This document shows, in pieces, positions 39,964 through 55,684 of a stretch of DNA of 64,000 nt. Position 1 is the stretch's first letter. The number at the start of each line of letters is the position of its first letter. A model generated the notes under the pieces. It did not search any database and was not told where the DNA came from. It worked only from the letters and a program-made list of their open reading frames with translations. A program made the translations under genes and the position numbers. The stretch covers positions 10,492 through 74,491 of the forward strand of contig CAVAPR010000004.1 in NCBI GenBank assembly GCA_963590665.1, in the 5' to 3' direction. This DNA is from Candidatus Methanomethylophilaceae archaeon. Its GTDB lineage: Bacteria; Cyanobacteriota; Vampirovibrionia; Gastranaerophilales; Gastranaerophilaceae.

Positions 39964-40363
39964 CTTGATTTCTCCTAACTAAAATTAAATAACCAATACG
40001 AAAAACCCGTATATTGATAAATATAACATAAATAAAGTCTATAAGTCTATAAGTTGATAAGTGAATAAGTCTATAAGTTCGTTACGTAAATTTTCCCTCC
40101 CCAAGGGTGGAGGGATTAAGGGAGAGGGGTTGATGTATAAGGAAAAAGGGACAAGGGAAATAGGGAAATAAGTTCGTTACATAACATTTTCCCTCTCCAA
40201 GAGACACTAGCGGAACCAATAGTTTTACCCTCTCCTTGAGGAGAGGGCTAGGGTGAGGTGGTAAACAGAACAAGCCGAACCTATGAAACTGAGTGCCGTA
40301 TAACTAAGGGCAGGGAGAGGGGTTAACTCAATGCATAGGATATAAAATACTACCCAGAATGAA

Positions 40364-40541
40364 GATACAGCTGTTTCCCCTCCACTTTGAGGGAGGGGAA
40401 GAATTTCAATACGAACTATGTGAGTATTAGAAATTCAGGGGAGGGGGATATTTAATTTCAAACCCCTCCTCGAAATCAAAGATTTCGGTCCTCCCACAAT
40501 CTGGGGAGGACATTATTCTTGGAGTATCAATTGTATGGTCT
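40364..40541 (-). repeat. K element copy 1 (148-nt multi-hairpin core at 40364-40511)
   Basis: Its reverse complement differs from copies 2 and 3 at one position of the 148-nt core (CTCAAAGTGG versus CTCAGAGTGG). Confidence 0.9.
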
Positions 40542-40830
40542 TAATCTGTTTTCTTCTTTGAGAGAGAAGATTTATCTAAACGCATAGGATAGAGATTCTT
40601 CGGGTAAATTTGTAATATTGTTTTTTACATTCAATTATTTACCCCTCAGAATGACTGAACTCTATTTTCCCTCCCCAAGGGTGGAGGGATTAAGGGAGAG
40701 GGTTCTTTTTTTCTAATAAACCCCTCTCCTAACCTCTCCCTCGGAGAGGAATTATGTTCAATATCTTAACAAGCCCGTCATACTGAGCGGAGCGAAGTAT
40801 CTCAAGCTGAACGAGTTCAGATTAACCCCT
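40364..40830 (-). repeat. left arm of the long inverted repeat flanking the pilin-like gene
   Basis: Its reverse complement aligns with 42097-42546 from AGGGGTTAATCTGAAC... to ...GGGGAAACAGCTGTATC. The alignment is interrupted only by module-sized indels. Confidence 0.85.
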
Positions 40831-41794
40831 ATCTATAGTTAATATAATCAGTCCAGTAGTTGTTATGACGAGTTACAGTCTTACCTTTTGCAGAAGTACC
40901 TGTATCTTTTTTATTTCCTAATCTATCAGCCCAGTCCATAGCGGCAATATTTTCTACAGGTTCATTAAAATAGCAATAATCAACCGCAGACCCAGAACCT
41001 TTTCTGTATCCAGTTTGACTTGGCATTTTATTCCCCCAACTATCACTAGAGATTTTATTTATATCACAAAGAACAAATTGACCAGAATAATTGCCAACAT
41101 GCGGGTCATCTGGGTTTTCATTATTTATATATATAGCTATTTCTTTAGCTGTCATTGGTTTAAAAATAAATGTATCTATATTCATTCTATTTGGCGCAGC
41201 TGTTCCATTTATATCAACACAAACGAACTGATTTTCACCATTGAAAGTCCATATACGACCTTTTGAATCAGTCCAAATTCCACCGTTATCACAAACAATT
41301 CCTGGAGATCCTGTTTTATCTTCAGTTTCAGTATTATGAAACCATTTTGGTCCTTGCGGAGCACCAGCATCTTTATATATTTGTTTTAACCTCCCACTTA
41401 TACCATTACTTGAATTAGCATTCTTATCAAAAGGTGCACCTCCTGCTAAATATGACATAAATTCACTTGCCCAACGTCTTGTATCACCATAGACATTTTT
41501 ACCTGCAGCAGTTTGAGTACCACATCTAAAGTTTGGGGCTTTTGACATATCAGTATATACACATTTATAAGCGAACTCACCAACATCGCCATTTTCATAG
41601 TTCATTCTAGCGCCAATTTCTTTGACTTCGCTATATGTTGAGCGGAACTGTTGTTCCAAAACTTTTCCACGGTAATTGTATGCCAAAGTTGGGATTGTCA
41701 ACGCTGCAACAGACCCCAAAAGCCCAATCGCTATCAACAATTCCGCCAATGTAAAACCAGATTTTTTATGCCAAAAACTCACGATTATAACCAA
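40829..41794 (-). CDS. prepilin-type N-terminal cleavage/methylation domain protein (type IV pilin-like, long form)
   Basis: HKKSG|FTLAELLIAIGLLGSVAALTIPTL. Paralog motif VDINGTAAPNRMNIDTFIFKP. 321 aa. Confidence 0.85.
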   Translation of the reverse strand: MVIIVSFWHKKSGFTLAELLIAIGLLGSVAALTIPTLAYNYRGKVLEQQFRSTYSEVKEIGARMNYENGDVGEFAYKCVYTDMSKAPNFRCGTQTAAGKNVYGDTRRWASEFMSYLAGGAPFDKNANSSNGISGRLKQIYKDAGAPQGPKWFHNTETEDKTGSPGIVCDNGGIWTDSKGRIWTFNGENQFVCVDINGTAAPNRMNIDTFIFKPMTAKEIAIYINNENPDDPHVGNYSGQFVLCDINKISSDSWGNKMPSQTGYRKGSGSAVDYCYFNEPVENIAAMDWADRLGNKKDTGTSAKGKTVTRHNNYWTDYINYR

Positions 41795-42096
41795 TCCTCA
41801 TAAACTTCCAATAACATGTTTATTATAACGTATTTTTTGCCTAAAGTCTAGAGGAGGGTGAGAAATGTTGTGAGGAACTTGTTTTAGAATTTCTGGCTAA
41901 ATGCACCAGTTAGAGATGCTGAAACAGCTAATGGCTTCGTCAACGCATACAGACTCACACGTTTCGCCTACAGCTCAACGGTTCGCTTTGTAAAGTTCAA
42001 CATGACAAGTGTGTTCGGTTTACCTCCTCACCCTAACCCTCTCCTCAAGGAGAGGGAAATTCTGTGTTCCTTCTCCCTTGGGAGAAGGTTAGGATG

Positions 42097-42546
42097 AGGG
42101 GTTAATCTGAACTTGTTCAGCTTGAGATACTTCGCTCCGCTCAGTATGACAAACTTGTTAAGATATTGAACATAATTCCTCTCCGAGGGACACTAGCTGA
42201 ACCAACGAAACGAAGTTGAGTTGTGTGAAACTGCGTGCCGTATGGCTGAGGTTAGGAGAAGGGTTGATTAGAAAAAAGAAAAATCCTCTCCCTTAGTCCC
42301 TCCACCCTTGGGGAGGGAAAATAGTGCTATTATTCTGAGGGACAAGTAATTGAATGTAAAAAACAGGCTAAGACTATACAATTGATACTCCAAGAATTGT
42401 CCTCCCCAGATTGTGGGAGGACCGAAATCTTTGATTTCGAGGAGGGGTTTGAAATTAAATATCCCCCTCCCCTGAATTTCTAATACTCACATAGTTCGTA
42501 TTGAAATTCTTCCCCTCCCTCAGAGTGGAGGGGAAACAGCTGTATC
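42097..42546 (+). repeat. right arm of the long inverted repeat flanking the pilin-like gene
   Basis: See the left arm. Contains a 59-nt insert (42191-42249) that is absent from the left arm. Confidence 0.85.
42371..42546 (+). repeat. K element copy 2 (core 42399-42546)
   Basis: The 148-nt core is identical to copy 3. Confidence 0.9.
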
Positions 42547-42591
42547 CTCATTCTGAATAGTATGAAAATGTTATGTAACCAACTTGTAGAC

Positions 42592-43164
42592 TTATCTTAT
42601 CCTTTTACCCAAAGACAAGCCTGCAGGAAGTGGTAAAACTACATTTTCGAAATCAGGGTCTGCATCAATTGCATCTAAAAATGTCTGTACTTTTGCTGCG
42701 TGAGAAATTACATTATCACAAGCAATATAACCACCTACGTTTAAATGTGGTTTTATAAATTCGAAAAACTTAATATATTGCGATTTATTCGCATCAATAA
42801 ATGCGAAATCTATCCTAAAATCCTCTGGCAAATATTCCAAAATCGTTGCGGCATCGCCTTTTCTGGTTTCAATAATATCCCCAACTCCGCATTTTTCAAA
42901 ATTTTCTTTTGCGACATCTAATCTCTTATCGTAAAACTCAATTGTAGTCAACTTACCACCAGTTTTTTTAAGAGCTTTGCCTAACCAAATTCCAGAATAA
43001 CCGTTAGAAGTTCCAACTTCTACAACACTTTTTGCTTTGGAATCAACAATCAAATTGTACAAAAATTCCGCAGTTGGTCGTGAAATATTCCAAAATTGTT
43101 TTTGGGTTTTTTCTAATTCTTTCAAGACTTCTTGAGTCGTGTTATCAAATGTTTCTATAATCAT
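42592..43164 (-). CDS. class I SAM-dependent O-methyltransferase (family 3, caffeoyl-CoA OMT-like)
   Basis: VVEVGTSNGYSGIWLG SAM motif, and IDANKSQY. Confidence 0.8.
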   Translation of the reverse strand: MIIETFDNTTQEVLKELEKTQKQFWNISRPTAEFLYNLIVDSKAKSVVEVGTSNGYSGIWLGKALKKTGGKLTTIEFYDKRLDVAKENFEKCGVGDIIETRKGDAATILEYLPEDFRIDFAFIDANKSQYIKFFEFIKPHLNVGGYIACDNVISHAAKVQTFLDAIDADPDFENVVLPLPAGLSLGKRIR

Positions 43165-50313: not shown

Positions 50314-51021
50314 TTAATAATTCATTCTCCAGCCAGCTTGCATAATTTTATTCAAACAACCAGCAGACCATTCGTGCCAAGCAGTACTAATATTCTTTCC
50401 ACAATTTTCGGGAGGAACACCACCACGACCATAATCTGCAACTGTGCCATCTGTCATTAAGTCAACAGTAAAGAAATCACGACCCGCCATATTTGGTTCA
50501 GCTGGACCATTTGTATCAATAACATACGATGGAATACCATTAGCTTGATTATAACCACCACAAATAGTAGCCCCATTTGTTGTTTGGATACAATAACCAA
50601 AACTTGTTACAACACCAGCCTCACCAGTAGTATCAGAAGCATTAATTTTTGTTTTATGAGCGCCATCCATAGTTTGATAATAATCACCCAAACAAACATT
50701 GTTAGGAGAATATGCTTTTGTTCCACAACCTTTTTTAGTTGTTTTAAAATATTTTGGAAGGAAATAACAAGCGCCTTGAGCCTTATCAGTTCCACAATAT
50801 GCATCATTGGTAGCTAAACGAGTTTTGTACAAACTATCAGCCATTTCATCTGCCATAATAGCTTTTGTCGCATCAGATAGTTGAGAATAAGTTTTCTCAA
50901 TAGATGCAGCCATAACTTTATTTTTATAATCTTTCATAATTGCAGGTATAGTTAATGCTGAAATCAATCCAACAATACCCATAGTTACCAAAACTTCTGA
51001 TAGTGTAAAACCTTTTTTCAT
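50314..51021 (-). CDS. prepilin-type N-terminal cleavage/methylation domain protein (type IV pilin-like)
   Basis: Start at ATG 51021: MKKG|FTLSEVLVTMGIVGLISALTIPAI. IDTNGPAEPNMAGRDFFTVDL. C-terminal AGWRMNY. Closest paralog of 24006..24707. Confidence 0.88.
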   Translation of the reverse strand: MKKGFTLSEVLVTMGIVGLISALTIPAIMKDYKNKVMAASIEKTYSQLSDATKAIMADEMADSLYKTRLATNDAYCGTDKAQGACYFLPKYFKTTKKGCGTKAYSPNNVCLGDYYQTMDGAHKTKINASDTTGEAGVVTSFGYCIQTTNGATICGGYNQANGIPSYVIDTNGPAEPNMAGRDFFTVDLMTDGTVADYGRGGVPPENCGKNISTAWHEWSAGCLNKIMQAGWRMNY

Positions 51022-51089
51022 ATTCCAATCGCCCCGTGAATAAACCATATAAACAATTATACTATTTTTTTTGAATATTTTCAAGTGGG

Positions 51090-51700
51090 AAGTTTTTGTT
51101 AAGGTTGATAGGTCTATAAGTTAGTTACAAGGGGATAGGGAAATAAGTTCGTTACATTGCATTTTTACCCTCTCCTTGGGGAGAAGAAACTTAATATTCC
51201 CCTTCTCCTTGAGGACACTAGCTGAACCAACAACTTTTCCCTCTCCGAGGGAGAGGGACTAAGGGAGAGGGGTTGATTAAGAAAATAAAGACGTCATTCT
51301 GAGGGATTTACATTAGAATAGCAAGATAACATTGCAAATTTACCCGAAGAATCTCAATCCTATGCGTTTAGATAAACCTTCTCTCTCAAAGAAGAAAACA
51401 GACTAAGACCATACAATTGATACTCCAAGAATAATGTCCTCCCCAGATTGTGGGAGGACCGAAATCTTTGATTTCGAGGAGGGGTTTGAAATTAAATATC
51501 CCCCTCCCCTGAATTTCTAATACTCACATAGTTCGTATTGAAATTCTTCCCCTCCCTCAGAGTGGAGGGGAAACAGCTGTATCTTCATCCTGGGTAGTAT
51601 TTATATCCTATGTGTTTAGTTTAACCCCTCTCCCTGTCCTAACCCTCGGAGAGGATAACCAACTTATAGACTTATCCACTCATTGACTTATAAACCTAAA
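51090..51700. repeat. mosaic palindromic repeat block 7 (no gene inside)
   Basis: Bounded by inverted 8-mer edges (GGTCTATAAGTTAGTTAC... and ...AACTTATAGACTTATCCACTCATTGACTTATAA). The interior is largely the reverse complement of block 5 and includes K core copy 3. Confidence 0.9.
51406..51583 (+). repeat. K element copy 3 (core 51436-51583)
   Basis: Core identical to copy 2. Flanks match the reverse complement of 40320-40660. Confidence 0.9.
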
Positions 51701-51753
51701 AAAATAACCGACGTAAAAACATCGGTTATTTTCATCAATTCAAAAAACTTTTA

Positions 51754-52413
51754 TTAGTCGTTGATAACTTTCAAAAGTCTTTCCCATACTTCATCAATTG
51801 AACCTTCTGCATTGATTGTTTTCAACAAGTTTTTATTTTTGTAATAATCAAACAATGGTGCAGTTTCTTTGAAATATGTATCAAAACGAGCTTTTGCTGT
51901 TTCTTCGTTGTCGTCTTTTCTTTGAGTCAATTCAGCGCCACATTTGTCACAAATACCTTCAACTTTTGTAGGTTTGAATTTCAAGTTGTAGATTTCTCCA
52001 CATTTTGGACAAGAACGACGGTTCACAATTCTTGAAATCAAAATTTCAGTATCTAAATCAAAATAAATTGCTCTAAAATCAGCTTCAATATCGCCATCGA
52101 TTTCTTTGTTAATTTCTTCTAACAAGTCAGCTTGTTCAACACTTCTTGGGTAACCATCCAAGATATAACCGTTTTTGCAATCTTCTTGAGATAGTCTATC
52201 TTTGATGATAGAAGCAACTAAAGAAACTGGAACTAATTCACCTTTGTCGATGAAAGATTTAGCGATTTTACCATTTTCAGTTCCGTTTTTGATTTCAGCT
52301 CTTAATAATGAACCAGTATCAACATGTGGAAAACCTAAAGATTCAGCAAGTCTTGAAGTTTGAGTACCTTTACCACAAGCTGGAGGTCCTAAAAAAATAA
52401 GTTCTTTTTTCAT
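51754..52413 (-). CDS. adk: adenylate kinase
   Basis: Start at ATG 52413: MKKELIFLGPPACGKGTQ P-loop, and a zinc-lid CPKCG...CDKCG. Confidence 0.97.
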   Translation of the reverse strand: MKKELIFLGPPACGKGTQTSRLAESLGFPHVDTGSLLRAEIKNGTENGKIAKSFIDKGELVPVSLVASIIKDRLSQEDCKNGYILDGYPRSVEQADLLEEINKEIDGDIEADFRAIYFDLDTEILISRIVNRRSCPKCGEIYNLKFKPTKVEGICDKCGAELTQRKDDNEETAKARFDTYFKETAPLFDYYKNKNLLKTINAEGSIDEVWERLLKVIND

Positions 52414-52504
52414 AATCATTTCACTCTTTCTATTTTTTATACCAAATATTTTAATCTCGTTAAAACCAACAGAACAATTGTACATCAAGGATTTTTATTA
52501 TTCA

Positions 52505-53165
52505 AGAAGGTTTTAATAAAGTGGATAAGTCAATAAGTCTATAAGTGGATAGGGTGGTTAAAAGGGATAAGGAAGAAGGGAATAGGGGAATAAGTTCTTT
52601 ACATTGCAATTTACCCTCTCCTTGAGGAGAGGGCTAGGGTGAGGTGGTAAACAAAACGCATTGGTCACCCCGAACTCGTTTCAGCATCTCAATCCTATGT
52701 GTTCAGTTTAACCCCTCACCTCAATCCTCTCCCCAAGGAGAGGAAGATATTTTATTGAGATACTTCGCTTCGCTCAGTATGACTAACACCGAACAGTCAT
52801 TCCGAATTTAGTTCGGAATCTCTATCCAAACGCACTAGTTAGAGATGCTGAAACAAGTTCAGCATGACATATTTGAATAAGGGGGGTTCGGGGGCTATGC
52901 CCCTGATGACTCGAGCCATTTAATCATTCGTGTTTTTCTTTTTCGGTTCTGCTTTTTCTTTTTTCATCGAAATAAAAAAGAAAAAGTGAACAATTATTTT
53001 ATATCGGATTTAATAAACCGACAAACATTTCTTTATTAAATCAACCCCTCTCCCTTACCCTCTTCCCTTGGAGAGGGTATAAAATTGACGGTTCTGAACT
53101 TATTTCCCTATTCCCCTGTTCCTTCTCCCTTTTAACCAACTTATTGACCTATAGACTTTTAGTGA
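52505..53165. repeat. mosaic palindromic repeat block 8 (no gene inside)
   Basis: Inverted edges at 52520-52600 and 53095-53160. Interior holds the same modules as block 1, including F module copy 4. Confidence 0.9.
52880..52991 (+). repeat. F module copy 4
   Basis: Near-identical to 5427-5536. Confidence 0.9.
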
Positions 53166-55505: not shown

Positions 55506-55534
55506 TTGACATGAATTTTTGCTTAATTTACTAT
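55506..55534 (+). promoter_or_regulatory. candidate sigma-70 promoter of the 55685-58382 operon
   Basis: TTGACA (55506-55511), 17-nt spacer, TACTAT (55529-55534). Confidence 0.55.
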
Positions 55535-55540
55535 CAAAAT

Positions 55541-55684
55541 AAGAGGAAATGAAGTGAATATCTTCAACTGAAGCCGCAGCCGTAAAAGTCGGAACGCTCG
55601 AAAAAAGAACCAATCCTACGTGCAATTTGGGATTGGGAGATACTTCTTTTTTATAGCGTCCTCTAAAATTTAGAGGATTTTTTA
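55541..55684 (+). promoter_or_regulatory. structured 5' leader with terminator/anti-terminator and RBS sequestration
   Basis: Hairpin TCCTCTA/TAGAGGA (55659-55665 / 55671-55677) followed by TTTTTT, ending 1 nt before ATG 55685. The only SD (AGAGGA, 55672-77) is the 3' half of that stem. An upstream AAGAGGA (55541-47) can pair with the 5' half instead. An internal perfect 7-bp hairpin CCAATCC/GGATTGG lies at 55610-55635. Confidence 0.5.

What the first reader, a model, noticed from the sequence alone, without database searches (positions are those of the whole stretch)
42399..42546. 148-nt multi-hairpin core present three times almost identically (K element)
Seen in sequence:
- 42399-42546 and 51436-51583 are identical by my alignment.
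- The reverse complement of 40364-40511 differs at one base, which falls in a hairpin loop (CTCARAGT).
- The core folds into five consecutive hairpins: GTCCTCCC/GGGAGGAC; CGAAATC/GATTTCG; GGAGGGG/CCCCTCC; GAATTTC..AATAC/GTATT.GAAATTC; TTCCCCTCC/GGAGGGGAA.
- The flanking sequences of the three copies are much more diverged and carry indels.
- All three copies are next to pilin-like genes. Two of them (42399, 51436) lie upstream of a pilin-like gene in the same relative orientation.

Inference: near-identity of a structured core within decaying flanks argues either for very recent spread or for selection on an RNA or DNA structure (sRNA, protein-binding scaffold, recombination site). Several stems sequester SD-like GGAGG and anti-SD-like CCTCC strings.
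Basis: partly seen in the sequence, partly recalled or inferred. Interest (0 to 1): 0.6.

Follow-up and report, generated by a model that had tools for sequence, protein, structure and literature searches.

The report
Hairpin repeat: gene-less nuclease-cassette ends
The triplicated 148-base "K element" is most likely a selfish DNA repeat and not a small RNA: it consists of two folded end-modules set back to back, the same kind of module that brackets small DUF559 nuclease genes in this gut bacterium and its relatives, and it was copied recently into repeat islands that the sister species lacks.

Summary
42399-42546 and 51436-51583 are identical. The reverse complement of 40364-40511 differs at one loop base. 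These are the only full copies in the 2.0-Mb Gastranaerophilales genome. They fold into five hairpins and are far better conserved than their flanks.

The core is not one novel RNA. It is an inverted pair of related modules. M1 is hairpin 1, hairpin 2 and a G-tail. M2 is a C-tail, hairpin 4 and hairpin 5. Each module looks like a BoxC/PIT/TMECO-type intrastrand-triplex motif with an extra hairpin in loop 2.

The same kinds of module bracket DUF559 nuclease genes:
- M1-type ends flank the two in-frame cassettes in this genome, in prmA and in an M14 peptidase gene.
- M2-type ends flank a free-standing copy in sister species.

K composites recur in four sequence variants at unrelated loci in other Gastranaerophilales, and all five helices are kept.

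All three copies lie in repeat islands absent from the orthologous sites of the nearest species. Near-identity therefore reflects recent copying or gene conversion.

I found no support for an RNA role: orientation is inconsistent, G·T and A·C mismatches are equal, and there is no Rfam match. RNA-seq could not be consulted.

Verdict: a new variant of a known kind of repeat, of moderate interest.

The parts
42399..42447 (+). K copy B, module M1. It consists of the C-block GTCCTCCCC, loop 1, the G-block GGGAGGAC, hairpin 2 (CGAAATC-TTT-GATTTCG) and the G-tail AGGAGGGG.
   Evidence: Fold. M1 occurs alone in many copies in sister species and in at least 120 Gastranaerophilales loci. It forms the inverted ends of the DUF559 cassette at G000 C5:64240-64665.
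42448..42462 (+). K copy B, A/T-rich linker (TTTGAAATTAAATAT). It forms the loop of hairpin 3.
   Evidence: The linker varies from 12 to 29 nt among K variants.
42463..42535 (+). K copy B, module M2, which is a module of the M1 type in inverted orientation. It consists of the C-tail CCCCCTCCCC, hairpin 4 (GAATTTCTAATAC/GTATTGAAATTC) and hairpin 5 (TTCCCCTCC/GGAGGGGAA).
   Evidence: rc(M2) aligns to M1 with z = 4.3 and 0 of 500 shuffles as good. M2 occurs alone in many copies in G032, G015 and G011. M2-type modules flank a free-standing DUF559 gene in L053 and L054.
51436..51583 (+). K copy C. It is identical to copy B. M1 is 51436-51484, the linker is 51485-51499 and M2 is 51500-51572.
   Evidence: It lies in a repeat island (about 51130-51688) that is absent in G035.
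40364..40511 (-). K copy A. It has one loop substitution. M1 is 40463-40511, the linker is 40448-40462 and M2 is 40375-40447.
42353..42576 (+). The larger three-copy unit around the core, also at 51388-51613 and at about 40334-40559(-). It includes an imperfect inverted repeat, ATACTCCAAGAAT / ATTCTGGGTAGTAT, that brackets the core.
   Evidence: These flanks occur only at the three K sites, and no empty site was found.
40085..42592 (.). A 2.5-kb lineage-specific island. It holds K-A, the pilin-like gene 40829-41794(-) and K-B. It has roughly 470-nt inverted arms and inverted TATAAGT-type edges.
   Evidence: The inverted arms are pairs I2, I3, I6, I8 and I9. The island is absent between the HIT and O-methyltransferase genes in G035 (11 nt between them), G010 (47 nt) and G017 (97 nt).
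40829..41794 (-). Pilin-like gene 1 (321 aa, prepilin N-methylation motif). It is the cargo of the island.
   Evidence: It is only 27% identical to pilin-like gene 2, so the K copies did not spread by duplication of the pilin genes.
50314..51084 (-). Pilin-like gene 2 (256 aa). It is divergent from K copy C. It is conserved in G035.
42006..42115 (.). An inverted pair of plain TMECO-type triplex motifs that forms a roughly 100-nt hairpin. It is the hairpin-less counterpart of the K architecture and lies in the same island.
   Evidence: (D2, I5, I7). The consensus comes from PMC4666352. There are 26 strict matches to it in the genome.

Best explanation
K is a non-coding, DNA-level palindromic repeat of about 137-150 nt, not an RNA gene.

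Anatomy (shown):
- It is an inverted, tail-to-tail pair of two related modules, M1 and M2.
- Each module has a C-rich block, a complementary G-rich block, a short A/T-rich hairpin and a second G-rich block that mirrors the first.
- This is the layout of BoxC/PIT/TMECO intrastrand-triplex motifs, with a hairpin replacing loop 2.
- The facing G-tail and C-tail pair to give hairpin 3.

Relatives (shown):
- The same kinds of module flank small DUF559 (Vsr-like, PD-(D/E)XK-fold) nuclease genes as inverted ends, in this genome and across the genus.
- The composite recurs as a discrete unit at unrelated loci in other Gastranaerophilales.
- The three copies here sit in repeat islands that the nearest sister species lacks at the orthologous junctions.

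Inferred:
- K is an ORF-less, miniature (MITE- or REPIN-like) relative of the DUF559 cassette.
- The three copies are near-identical because they were copied recently, or homogenised by short-tract gene conversion between paralogous repeat arms.
- Long-term selection on a transcript is not the cause.
- The copying agent is unknown. The DUF559 nuclease acting in trans, through a double-strand break repaired from a K-bearing copy (homing-like), is the leading candidate and is not shown.
- The hairpin and triplex-prone structure is probably what is recognised or what provokes breakage.
- That structure also plausibly makes these islands hotspots of rearrangement.
For: 1. Copy number and fold are given.
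2. The modules occur separately. M1 (positions 1-50) and M2 (positions 67-137) are each multi-copy in sister genomes. M1 is in at least 120 Gastranaerophilales loci.
3. M1 and rc(M2) share their architecture and end sequence: z = 4.3, 0 of 500 shuffles.
4. The link to DUF559 rests on several results.
   - In G000 C5:64240-64665, rc-M1, DUF559 and M1 lie in frame inside an M14 peptidase-like gene. In C3:71450-71895, an M1 variant, DUF559 and rc-M1 lie in frame inside prmA.
   - A free-standing DUF559 gene is flanked by inverted M2-type modules in L053 and L054.
   - At least 17 of 67 DUF559 copies in the genus have a K-model hit within about 100 nt. My rough estimate of the chance expectation is below 1.
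   - K-model hits per genome correlate with DUF559 copies per genome. Spearman rho is 0.45 (p = 0.0035), and the presence/absence Fisher test gives p = 0.007.
5. The triplex-motif layout is present.
   - The published TMECO consensus (PMC4666352) matches 26 times strictly in this 33%-GC genome, and a relaxed form matches 61 times. Only the relaxed form was checked against a shuffled genome, where it gave 0 matches.
   - In 38 distinct M1 variants, 4.97 of 7 triplets are canonical purine-motif triplets in register, against 1.7-3.05 in shifted registers.
6. The composite is a discrete family.
   - Four sequence variants keep all five helices. On a model-fitted alignment, 91.7% of cells are paired and 39 of 43 pairs show changes on both sides.
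   - An independent MAFFT and RNAalifold run gives the same five helices, with 11 of 39 pairs compensatory.
   - In L191 against L193 the K unit is 93% identical while the flanks are unrelated.
7. The copies are recent.
   - The island 40085-42592 is absent in G035, G010 and G017.
   - The K-C island is absent in G035.
   - The core is much less diverged than its flanks.
8. The signal is at the DNA level.
   - G·T equals A·C, 10 each.
   - M1 occurs in both orientations relative to its neighbours: 13 '++', 10 '--', 9 convergent and 3 divergent.
   - There is no Rfam family.
Against: - No empty site for K alone was found. The 55-nt and 24-nt immediate flanks exist only at the three K sites, so in this genome the copied unit may be about 225 nt or a whole island arm.
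- No target-site duplication is evident.
- Three genomes have many K-type modules but no DUF559: G064 (99% complete), G030 and G031. The nuclease may therefore be a passenger and not the driver.
- The correlation is not corrected for phylogeny.
- Triplex compatibility is partly a by-product of low-complexity GGNGG blocks. An alternative C1:G2 helix explains the same covariation.
- Holder et al. did not detect stable triplexes in vivo.
- Transcription was not tested.
- With only three copies, selection on the core cannot be told apart from a short conversion tract.
- G035 is a fragmented assembly (270 contigs), so repeats could have been lost from it. The two junctions used are, however, continuous within single contigs.
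Confidence: 0.6

Rival explanations
1. K is a structured RNA. It could be a small RNA, or a cis-acting 3'-UTR or 5'-leader element of pilin-like mRNAs. Possible roles are a barrier to exonucleases or a decoy for SD and anti-SD sequences. In this reading the core is kept identical by selection on the transcript.
For: - The fold is very stable.
- All five helices are kept through compensatory changes.
- Copy A lies 3' of pilin-like gene 1 in the same orientation.
- In G011, related 133-nt units lie 3' of three pilin-like genes in the same orientation, and five units stand in tandem upstream of one of them.
- GGAGG and CCTCC strings are sequestered in the stems.
- In relatives the G-tail of M1 sits at Shine-Dalgarno distance from start codons.
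Against: - Copies B and C are divergent from the pilin-like genes and lie 350-600 nt beyond promoter-like sites close to the genes.
- The G026 copy is next to trmD, not a pilin gene.
- No T-tract terminator follows any hairpin.
- G·T equals A·C among hairpin-1 mismatches.
- M1 occurs in both orientations, and a third of the copies lie inside long ORFs.
- No Rfam family matches.
- Compensatory change is also expected for DNA palindromes.
Confidence: 0.12
2. K has no mobility or function of its own. It is part of a longer repeat arm that was duplicated segmentally. The perfect core results from ordinary short-tract gene conversion between three paralogous arms that lie within 11 kb.
For: - All three copies lie within 11 kb, and homologous modules extend for 225-470 nt around them.
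- No K-alone empty site was found and no target-site duplication is seen.
- Copies A and B belong to the inverted arms of one island.
Against: - The same M1-linker-M2 composite is a bounded unit at unrelated loci in other genomes.
- It occurs as tandem arrays in G011.
- This reading does not explain why conversion tracts should coincide with the composite's ends in all three pairwise comparisons.
Confidence: 0.15
3. K and its arms are functional recombination sites. The roughly 470-nt inverted repeats allow inversion or exchange of the pilin-like cassette, giving surface variation. The structured core acts as the recombination hotspot or as a protein-binding site.
For: - Inverted arms bracket pilin-like gene 1.
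- adk, which lies between two repeat islands, is inverted relative to G035.
- Short repeats are about three times enriched around the 33 pilin-like genes.
- Edge-bounded islands bracket 5 of 33 pilin-like genes against 37 of 1709 genes overall.
- TMECO loci are unusually rearranged in E. coli (PMC4666352).
Against: - Inverting a whole gene together with its proximal promoter-like sites would change nothing in its expression.
- No tyrosine recombinase lies on the window's contig.
- Module 1 in general is not associated with pilin genes (1 of 35).
- No alternative orientation could be looked for, because no reads or other assemblies were available.
Confidence: 0.08
4. K is a REPIN, that is, a pair of REP sequences mobilised by the genome's single REP-associated tyrosine transposase (RAYT).
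For: - The genome encodes one RAYT (NF047646, 134 bits against a cut-off of 80).
- K has the REPIN layout of two inverted palindromic units.
Against: - The RAYT is flanked on both sides by a different REP, GTAG-GTTGGGCATACCTGCCCAAC. That REP has its own 27 copies.
- K modules lack the GTAG head.
- K modules flank DUF559 genes, not the RAYT.
Confidence: 0.03

Closest known systems
BoxC / PIT / TMECO intrastrand-triplex repeats of E. coli and other bacteria (Holder et al. 2015, PMC4666352; Hoyne et al. 2000 as cited there)
   Same: - The layout is a C-block, a loop, a complementary G-block, a loop and a mirror G-block.
- They are interspersed and have no strand bias.
- They often occur as inverted pairs.
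- Copy number differs strongly between close relatives.
- Their loci are prone to rearrangement.
- The published consensus itself matches 26 times in this genome, and plain inverted pairs lie in the same island.
   Different: - In the K modules, loop 2 (3 nt in TMECO) is replaced by a 17-36-nt A/T-rich hairpin.
- The blocks are CCTCCCC-type and not CCCTCNCCC.
- TMECO was reported as always intergenic in E. coli MG1655 and as not associated with mobile elements. Here the modules flank a nuclease gene and occur inside ORFs.
- Triplex formation by the K modules has not been tested.
REPINs and their RAYT transposases
   Same: - Both are pairs of inverted palindromic units about 100-150 nt long.
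- Both are non-coding, with family-level conservation of the stems.
- In both, a single-copy protein gene is flanked by the same units.
   Different: - The flanked gene here is a DUF559 PD-(D/E)XK-fold nuclease and not a Y1 (HUH) transposase.
- The genome's RAYT has its own, different REP.
- K modules have no GTAG head.
MITEs of bacteria (Correia/NEMIS, RUP, the modular BOX elements, Nezha) and Rickettsia palindromic elements (from my own knowledge)
   Same: - They are short, structured and non-autonomous.
- They have a modular make-up.
- They show presence/absence differences between relatives.
- Some copies are read in frame inside genes, like RPEs. M1 is translated as ...PLEGGPKSLISRRG....
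   Different: - No target-site duplication is seen.
- No transposase-type partner is known.
- The ends are self-folding hairpins and not simple terminal inverted repeats.
Homing-endonuclease cassettes (free-standing HEGs, intein-borne HEGs, Vsr-fold I-Bth0305I-type enzymes; from my own knowledge and earlier scan notes)
   Same: - A small nuclease gene sits inside conserved host genes.
- An identical element lies within diverged homologous flanks, which is the pattern that co-conversion leaves.
   Different: - There are no intron or intein splicing motifs, and the cassette is read through in frame.
- K itself carries no nuclease.
- Cleavage activity and a target site have not been demonstrated.

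Membership tests
BoxC/PIT/TMECO intrastrand triplex motif | A C-rich block followed, after a 3-6-nt loop, by a complementary G-rich block. | tested here: met
   M1 has GTCCTCCC(C) / GGGAGGAC. rc(M2) has TTCCCCTCC / GGAGGGGAA. The loop is 7-8 nt in this genome and 4 nt in most relatives.
BoxC/PIT/TMECO intrastrand triplex motif | A second G-rich block that mirrors the first, giving G·G-C, A·A-T and T·A-T triplets in register. | tested here: met
   G1 reversed (CAGGAGGG) matches G2 (GAGGAGGG). In 38 M1 variants, 4.97 of 7 triplets are canonical in register against 1.7-3.05 in shifted registers. This is in-silico compatibility only, and low complexity contributes to it.
BoxC/PIT/TMECO intrastrand triplex motif | A second loop of 3 nt (TTA or CCG), and the consensus CCCTCNCCC...GGGNGAGGG. 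| tested here: not met
   Loop 2 is a 17-nt hairpin in M1 and a 36-nt hairpin in M2. The block sequences also differ from the consensus. The strict consensus is met by other modules of the genome (26 matches) but not by K.
BoxC/PIT/TMECO intrastrand triplex motif | Formation of a stable intrastrand triplex, shown by CD or NMR. | not testable with these tools
   This needs oligonucleotide biophysics.
REPIN/RAYT system | The same REP flanks the RAYT gene. | tested here: not met
   The RAYT at G000 C36 is flanked by GTAGGTTGGGCATACCTGCCCAAC on both sides. K modules are unrelated to that REP.
REPIN/RAYT system | Two inverted palindromic units separated by a short spacer. | tested here: met
   The layout is M1, a 15-nt linker, and inverted M2.
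MITE | A short non-coding unit that has the same ends as an autonomous element encoding a mobilising enzyme. | tested here: inconclusive
   The end modules are shared with DUF559 cassettes. Whether DUF559 mobilises anything is unknown, and three genomes have modules without DUF559.
MITE | A target-site duplication, and filled or empty sites at the element's boundaries. | tested here: not met
   No duplication is seen at five independent copies. No K-alone empty site was found. Only whole-island empty sites exist.
Bacterial small RNA or cis-regulatory RNA | A defined transcript with a promoter and a terminator, and a fixed orientation to its target gene. | tested here: not met
   No promoter or terminator consensus lies in or beside K. 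Orientation differs among the copies.
Bacterial small RNA or cis-regulatory RNA | Strand-specific covariation, with G·U tolerated on one strand only. | tested here: not met
   G·T = 10 and A·C = 10 among 224 hairpin-1 pair positions in 28 distinct variants.
Rfam families | A match at the gathering score. | tested here: not met
   No K copy matches any family. Only sub-threshold chance hits were found, to whalefall-1 (22 bits against 37) and to miRNA hairpins.

The most novel reading that the evidence does not exclude
K-type units would be the non-autonomous partners of a class of bacterial mobile element that I did not find described in the papers searched. The only protein of that element would be a DUF559 (Vsr-like) nuclease. 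Its ends would be self-folding, triplex-prone hairpin modules.

In this reading the nuclease cuts at or near folded modules or their empty targets. Repair then copies either the full cassette, which survives inside genes by being read in frame, or the ORF-less end-pair K.

This would give a source and a spreading mechanism for the long-unexplained BoxC/PIT/TMECO repeats. It would also explain why their loci are unstable.

The three 99-100% identical K copies in islands missing from a sister species of about 90% nucleotide identity would then be a rare sign of recent activity.
Probability: 0.2. Interest if true: 0.75.

Novelty: new variant of a known kind. Interest (0 to 1): 0.45.

Why it matters
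As a single locus this is a selfish repeat and not a new RNA, and that closes the sRNA lead. It matters for three reasons.

- **A named family.** It ties a conspicuous repeat of gut Melainabacteria (Gastranaerophilales) to the BoxC/PIT/TMECO triplex-motif family. The origin and function of that family in E. coli have stayed open since 2000.
- **A link to a nuclease gene.** The same modules form the ends of DUF559 nuclease cassettes, including copies read in frame inside prmA and a peptidase gene. K is a gene-less version of such a cassette. Its near-identical copies sit in sites that are empty in a sister species. Earlier scan notes on such cassettes in other genomes cited old copies (at most 78% alike) as a weakness, so this sign of recent copying is useful.
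- **Genome plasticity.** It documents that these repeat islands go together with insertion of pilin-like cargo genes and with an inversion of adk between close species. That bears on how these uncultured gut bacteria vary their many pilin-like surface proteins.

Tried and rejected
- **Exact-protein look-up.** A look-up of pilin-like gene 1 in other assemblies, to look for inversion or other strains, found nothing on record.
- **Metagenome scans.** An exact 30-mer across the M1-linker-M2 junction gave 0 hits in JGI metagenomes. A gapped pattern then found 5 loci with other K variants.
- **Phage and plasmid collections.** There was no match.
- **Rfam.** It gave nothing at gathering score and only chance sub-threshold hairpin hits.
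- **K-alone empty site.** A query made of the two joined flanks found no hit spanning the junction in 41 genomes.
- **RAYT as the partner.** Rejected, because its cognate REP is a different sequence.
- **Spread by duplication of the pilin genes.** Rejected, because the two pilin-like proteins are 27% identical.
- **General pilin association of module 1.** Rejected: 1 of 35 intergenic copies is next to a pilin-like gene.
- **Local invertase.** None of the nine tyrosine-recombinase matches in the genome is on the window's contig.
- **Flawed analyses.**
  - The third pattern, the generic block pattern, was badly written. I ignore its result.
  - The greedy ORF caller over-extends starts. The figure '33 of 81 inside ORFs' is therefore an upper bound.
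- **Literature.** Searches for 'Gastranaerophilales' with 'repeat' and for 'DUF559' found no description of these elements.
Full report
**Observation**

The three copies are real. 42399-42546 and 51436-51583 are identical. The reverse complement of 40364-40511 differs at one base, in the loop of the last hairpin.

The window is C4:10492-74491 of a 2.0-Mb, 33%-GC assembly in 63 contigs. Titles of related records identify it as a Candidatus Gastranaerophilales (Melainabacteria) genome from a gut or rumen. A whole-genome BLAST finds only these three full copies, plus two partial copies of the first 50 nt on contig C5.

The z-scores run from -5.2 to -6.9, and no shuffle of 200 folds as well.

The core is significantly better conserved than its surroundings. 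For A against C there is 1 substitution in 148 core positions and 14 in 169 flank positions (p = 0.001). The other two comparisons are stronger but include non-homologous flank. The flanks differ by presence or absence of whole short modules.

**What surrounds it**

The intergenic DNA here is a mosaic of short repeat modules, many with more than 30 copies in the genome. About 4-5% of the genome is short-repeat DNA.

The genome encodes at least 33 scattered pilin-like proteins. Short repeats are about three times enriched in their 800-nt flanks. Of the pilin-like genes, 42% have repeat-rich flanks, against 16% of other genes (Fisher p = 3e-4).

The two pilin-like genes beside K are only 27% identical to each other. 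K therefore did not spread by duplication of those genes.

Copies A and B belong to inverted arms of about 470 nt that bracket pilin-like gene 1.

**The core is composite**

In sister species, positions 1-50 (M1: hairpin 1, hairpin 2, G-tail) and positions 67-137 (M2: C-tail, hairpin 4, hairpin 5) occur separately and in many copies. A 21-mer of M1 hits at least 120 loci, nearly all in Gastranaerophilales or Melainabacteria MAGs.

The reverse complement of M2 has the same layout as M1 and aligns to it with z = 4.3. That layout is a C/G hairpin, an A/T hairpin and a G-tail. K is therefore two modules of one type placed tail to tail. The G-tail and C-tail pair to form hairpin 3.

The composite recurs as a unit in four sequence variants:
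- this genome;
- G026/G005 and the metagenome locus L194;
- L063, L191 and L193;
- a 133-nt form in G011.

In those variants hairpins 2 and 4 have different sequences but the same geometry.

A covariance-model alignment gives 91.7% paired cells, and 39 of 43 pairs show changes on both sides. That alignment leans towards the model. An independent MAFFT and RNAalifold run on eight sequences recovers the same five helices, with 11 of 39 pairs compensatory.

L191 and L193 carry the same variant at 93% identity in unrelated flanks. The composite is thus a bounded unit that runs from GTCC... to ...GGGGA(A).

**Link to DUF559 nuclease cassettes**

A DUF559 protein found next to K-type units in G011 led to three DUF559 loci in this genome. 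All three are strong Pfam PF04480 matches:
- The C3 and C5 domains score 131-139 bits in a Pfam scan.
- The C8 copy scores 135 bits in the genus-wide search.

Two of them are bracketed by inverted M1-type modules, and both lie in frame within one long ORF:
- rc-M1, DUF559 and M1 inside an M14-peptidase-like gene (C5:64240-64665);
- an M1 variant, DUF559 and rc-M1 inside prmA (C3:71450-71895).

In G011 and G026, a free-standing DUF559 gene is bracketed by inverted M2-type modules.

Across 41 genomes of the genus there are 67 DUF559 copies. At least 17 have a K-model hit within about 100 nt. This is a lower bound, because only the best 150 hits were listed. My rough expectation by chance is below one.

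K-model hits and DUF559 copies per genome correlate, with rho = 0.45 and p = 0.0035. This is not corrected for phylogeny. Three genomes (G064, G030, G031) have many modules and no DUF559.

K is the gene-less form of this layout.

**Link to triplex motifs**

I had noted that the G-tail mirrors the 3' arm of hairpin 1. Earlier notes of this scan then pointed to BoxC/PIT/TMECO repeats.

Holder et al. 2015 (PMC4666352) give the consensus CCCTCNCCC-N3-6-GGGNGAGGG-N3-GGGNGAGGG. They describe inverted pairs, absence of strand bias, and unstable loci.

That strict consensus matches 26 times in this genome, and a relaxed form matches 61 times. Only the relaxed form was run against a shuffled genome, where it gave none. 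A plain inverted pair lies at 42006-42115 in the same island.

K's modules have the same block order, but a hairpin replaces the 3-nt second loop. In 38 distinct M1 variants, 4.97 of 7 triplets are canonical purine-motif triplets in register, against 1.7-3.05 when the register is shifted.

This shows compatibility only. Low complexity and an alternative helix between the first C-block and the G-tail explain part of it.

**Age of the copies**

G035 is the nearest species, with about 89-93% nucleotide identity in the flanking genes. There the HIT and O-methyltransferase genes are 11 nt apart. The whole 2.5-kb island 40085-42592, with K-A, pilin-like gene 1 and K-B, is absent. G010 and G017 are also empty at this junction.

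The island holding K-C is also absent in G035. In that genome adk is inverted, and its start abuts the start of pilin-like gene 2.

All three copies are therefore in lineage-specific DNA. This favours recent copying or conversion over ancient conservation.

No site empty for K alone was found. In this genome the copied unit could therefore be about 225 nt, which includes a bracketing imperfect palindrome ATACTCCAAGAAT / ATTCTGGGTAGTAT, or it could be a whole island arm.

**RNA or DNA**

Nothing supports a transcript:
- There are no promoter or terminator matches.
- Orientation to the neighbouring genes differs among the copies.
- M1 elsewhere lies in both orientations and often inside ORFs.
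- G·T and A·C mismatches in hairpin 1 are equal, at 10 each.
- No Rfam family matches.

One observation remains unexplained. K-type units lie 3' of pilin-like genes, in the same orientation, at copy A and at three loci in G011.

**Other partners considered**

The genome has one RAYT (134 bits against a cut-off of 80). It is flanked by its own, different GTAG-headed REP, which has 27 copies. No tyrosine recombinase lies on the window's contig. K has no match in the phage or plasmid collections.

**Verdict**

K is a DNA-level, hairpin- and triplex-type inverted module pair, the gene-less relative of DUF559 cassettes. It was copied recently within repeat islands.

It is a new variant of a known kind of repeat.

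The bolder reading is that DUF559 nucleases mobilise such end-pairs and that this explains BoxC/PIT/TMECO repeats. It is not excluded, and I put it at about 20%.

Noticed in passing
G000 contig C3:71450-71895 and C5:64240-64665 (outside the window): Two DUF559 nuclease cassettes with inverted M1-type ends are read through in frame. One lies inside prmA and one inside an M14 carboxypeptidase-like gene. About ten other species of the genus have a DUF559 in an open frame of about 370 aa. That is probably the same peptidase site, but I did not check it.
   Followed up: partly
window 40085-42592: A 2.5-kb island carries a pilin-like gene between inverted arms of about 470 nt and inverted edges of the type GTAAC(G/C)AACTTATAGACTTAT. 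It is absent from the same junction in three sister species. Genome-wide, 5 of 33 pilin-like genes are bracketed by such edges, against 37 of 1709 genes overall.
   Followed up: partly
window 51688-52520: adk lies between two repeat islands and is inverted relative to the nearest species, G035. In G035 the adk stop faces the pfp start.
   Followed up: partly
G000 contig C36:7482-7853 (locus L021:1357-1905): This is a single REP-associated tyrosine transposase. It is flanked on both sides by GTAG-GTTGGGCATACCTGCCCAAC. The pattern GTAGGTTGGG-N2-14-CCCAAC occurs 27 times genome-wide, in several variants.
   Followed up: partly
whole genome G000: The published E. coli TMECO triplex-motif consensus matches 26 times strictly in this 33%-GC melainabacterial genome. 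E. coli MG1655 has 23.
   Followed up: partly
whole genome G000: At least 33 scattered paralogues of a pilin-like protein of about 230 aa share a near-identical N-terminus, GFTLAEVLITLGIIGVVAAMTIPTL.
   Followed up: no
L051:2465-3128 (G011 contig C28): Five 133-nt K-type units stand in tandem between two pilin-like genes, next to a free-standing DUF559 gene. A spurious 83-aa ORF runs through the array.
   Followed up: partly
L080, L109, L128, L141 (other Gastranaerophilales): The G-tail of module 1 (GGAGGGG) sits 1-3 nt before the ATG of an SDR-type gene and of an ABC-2 permease-type gene. There the repeat supplies the Shine-Dalgarno sequence.
   Followed up: no
window 55530-55605 (+): An AdoCbl-II cobalamin riboswitch is the only Rfam match at gathering score in the window (40 bits against 36.5).
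   Followed up: no
window 42024-42058, 40226-40260 and 42283-42321, and inside K at 40374-40446 and 42464-42536: Plain triplex-type hairpin modules give repeated sub-threshold matches to the Rfam family whalefall-1 (21-28 bits against 37). They may be chance matches, or that motif may be a repeat of the same kind.
   Followed up: no
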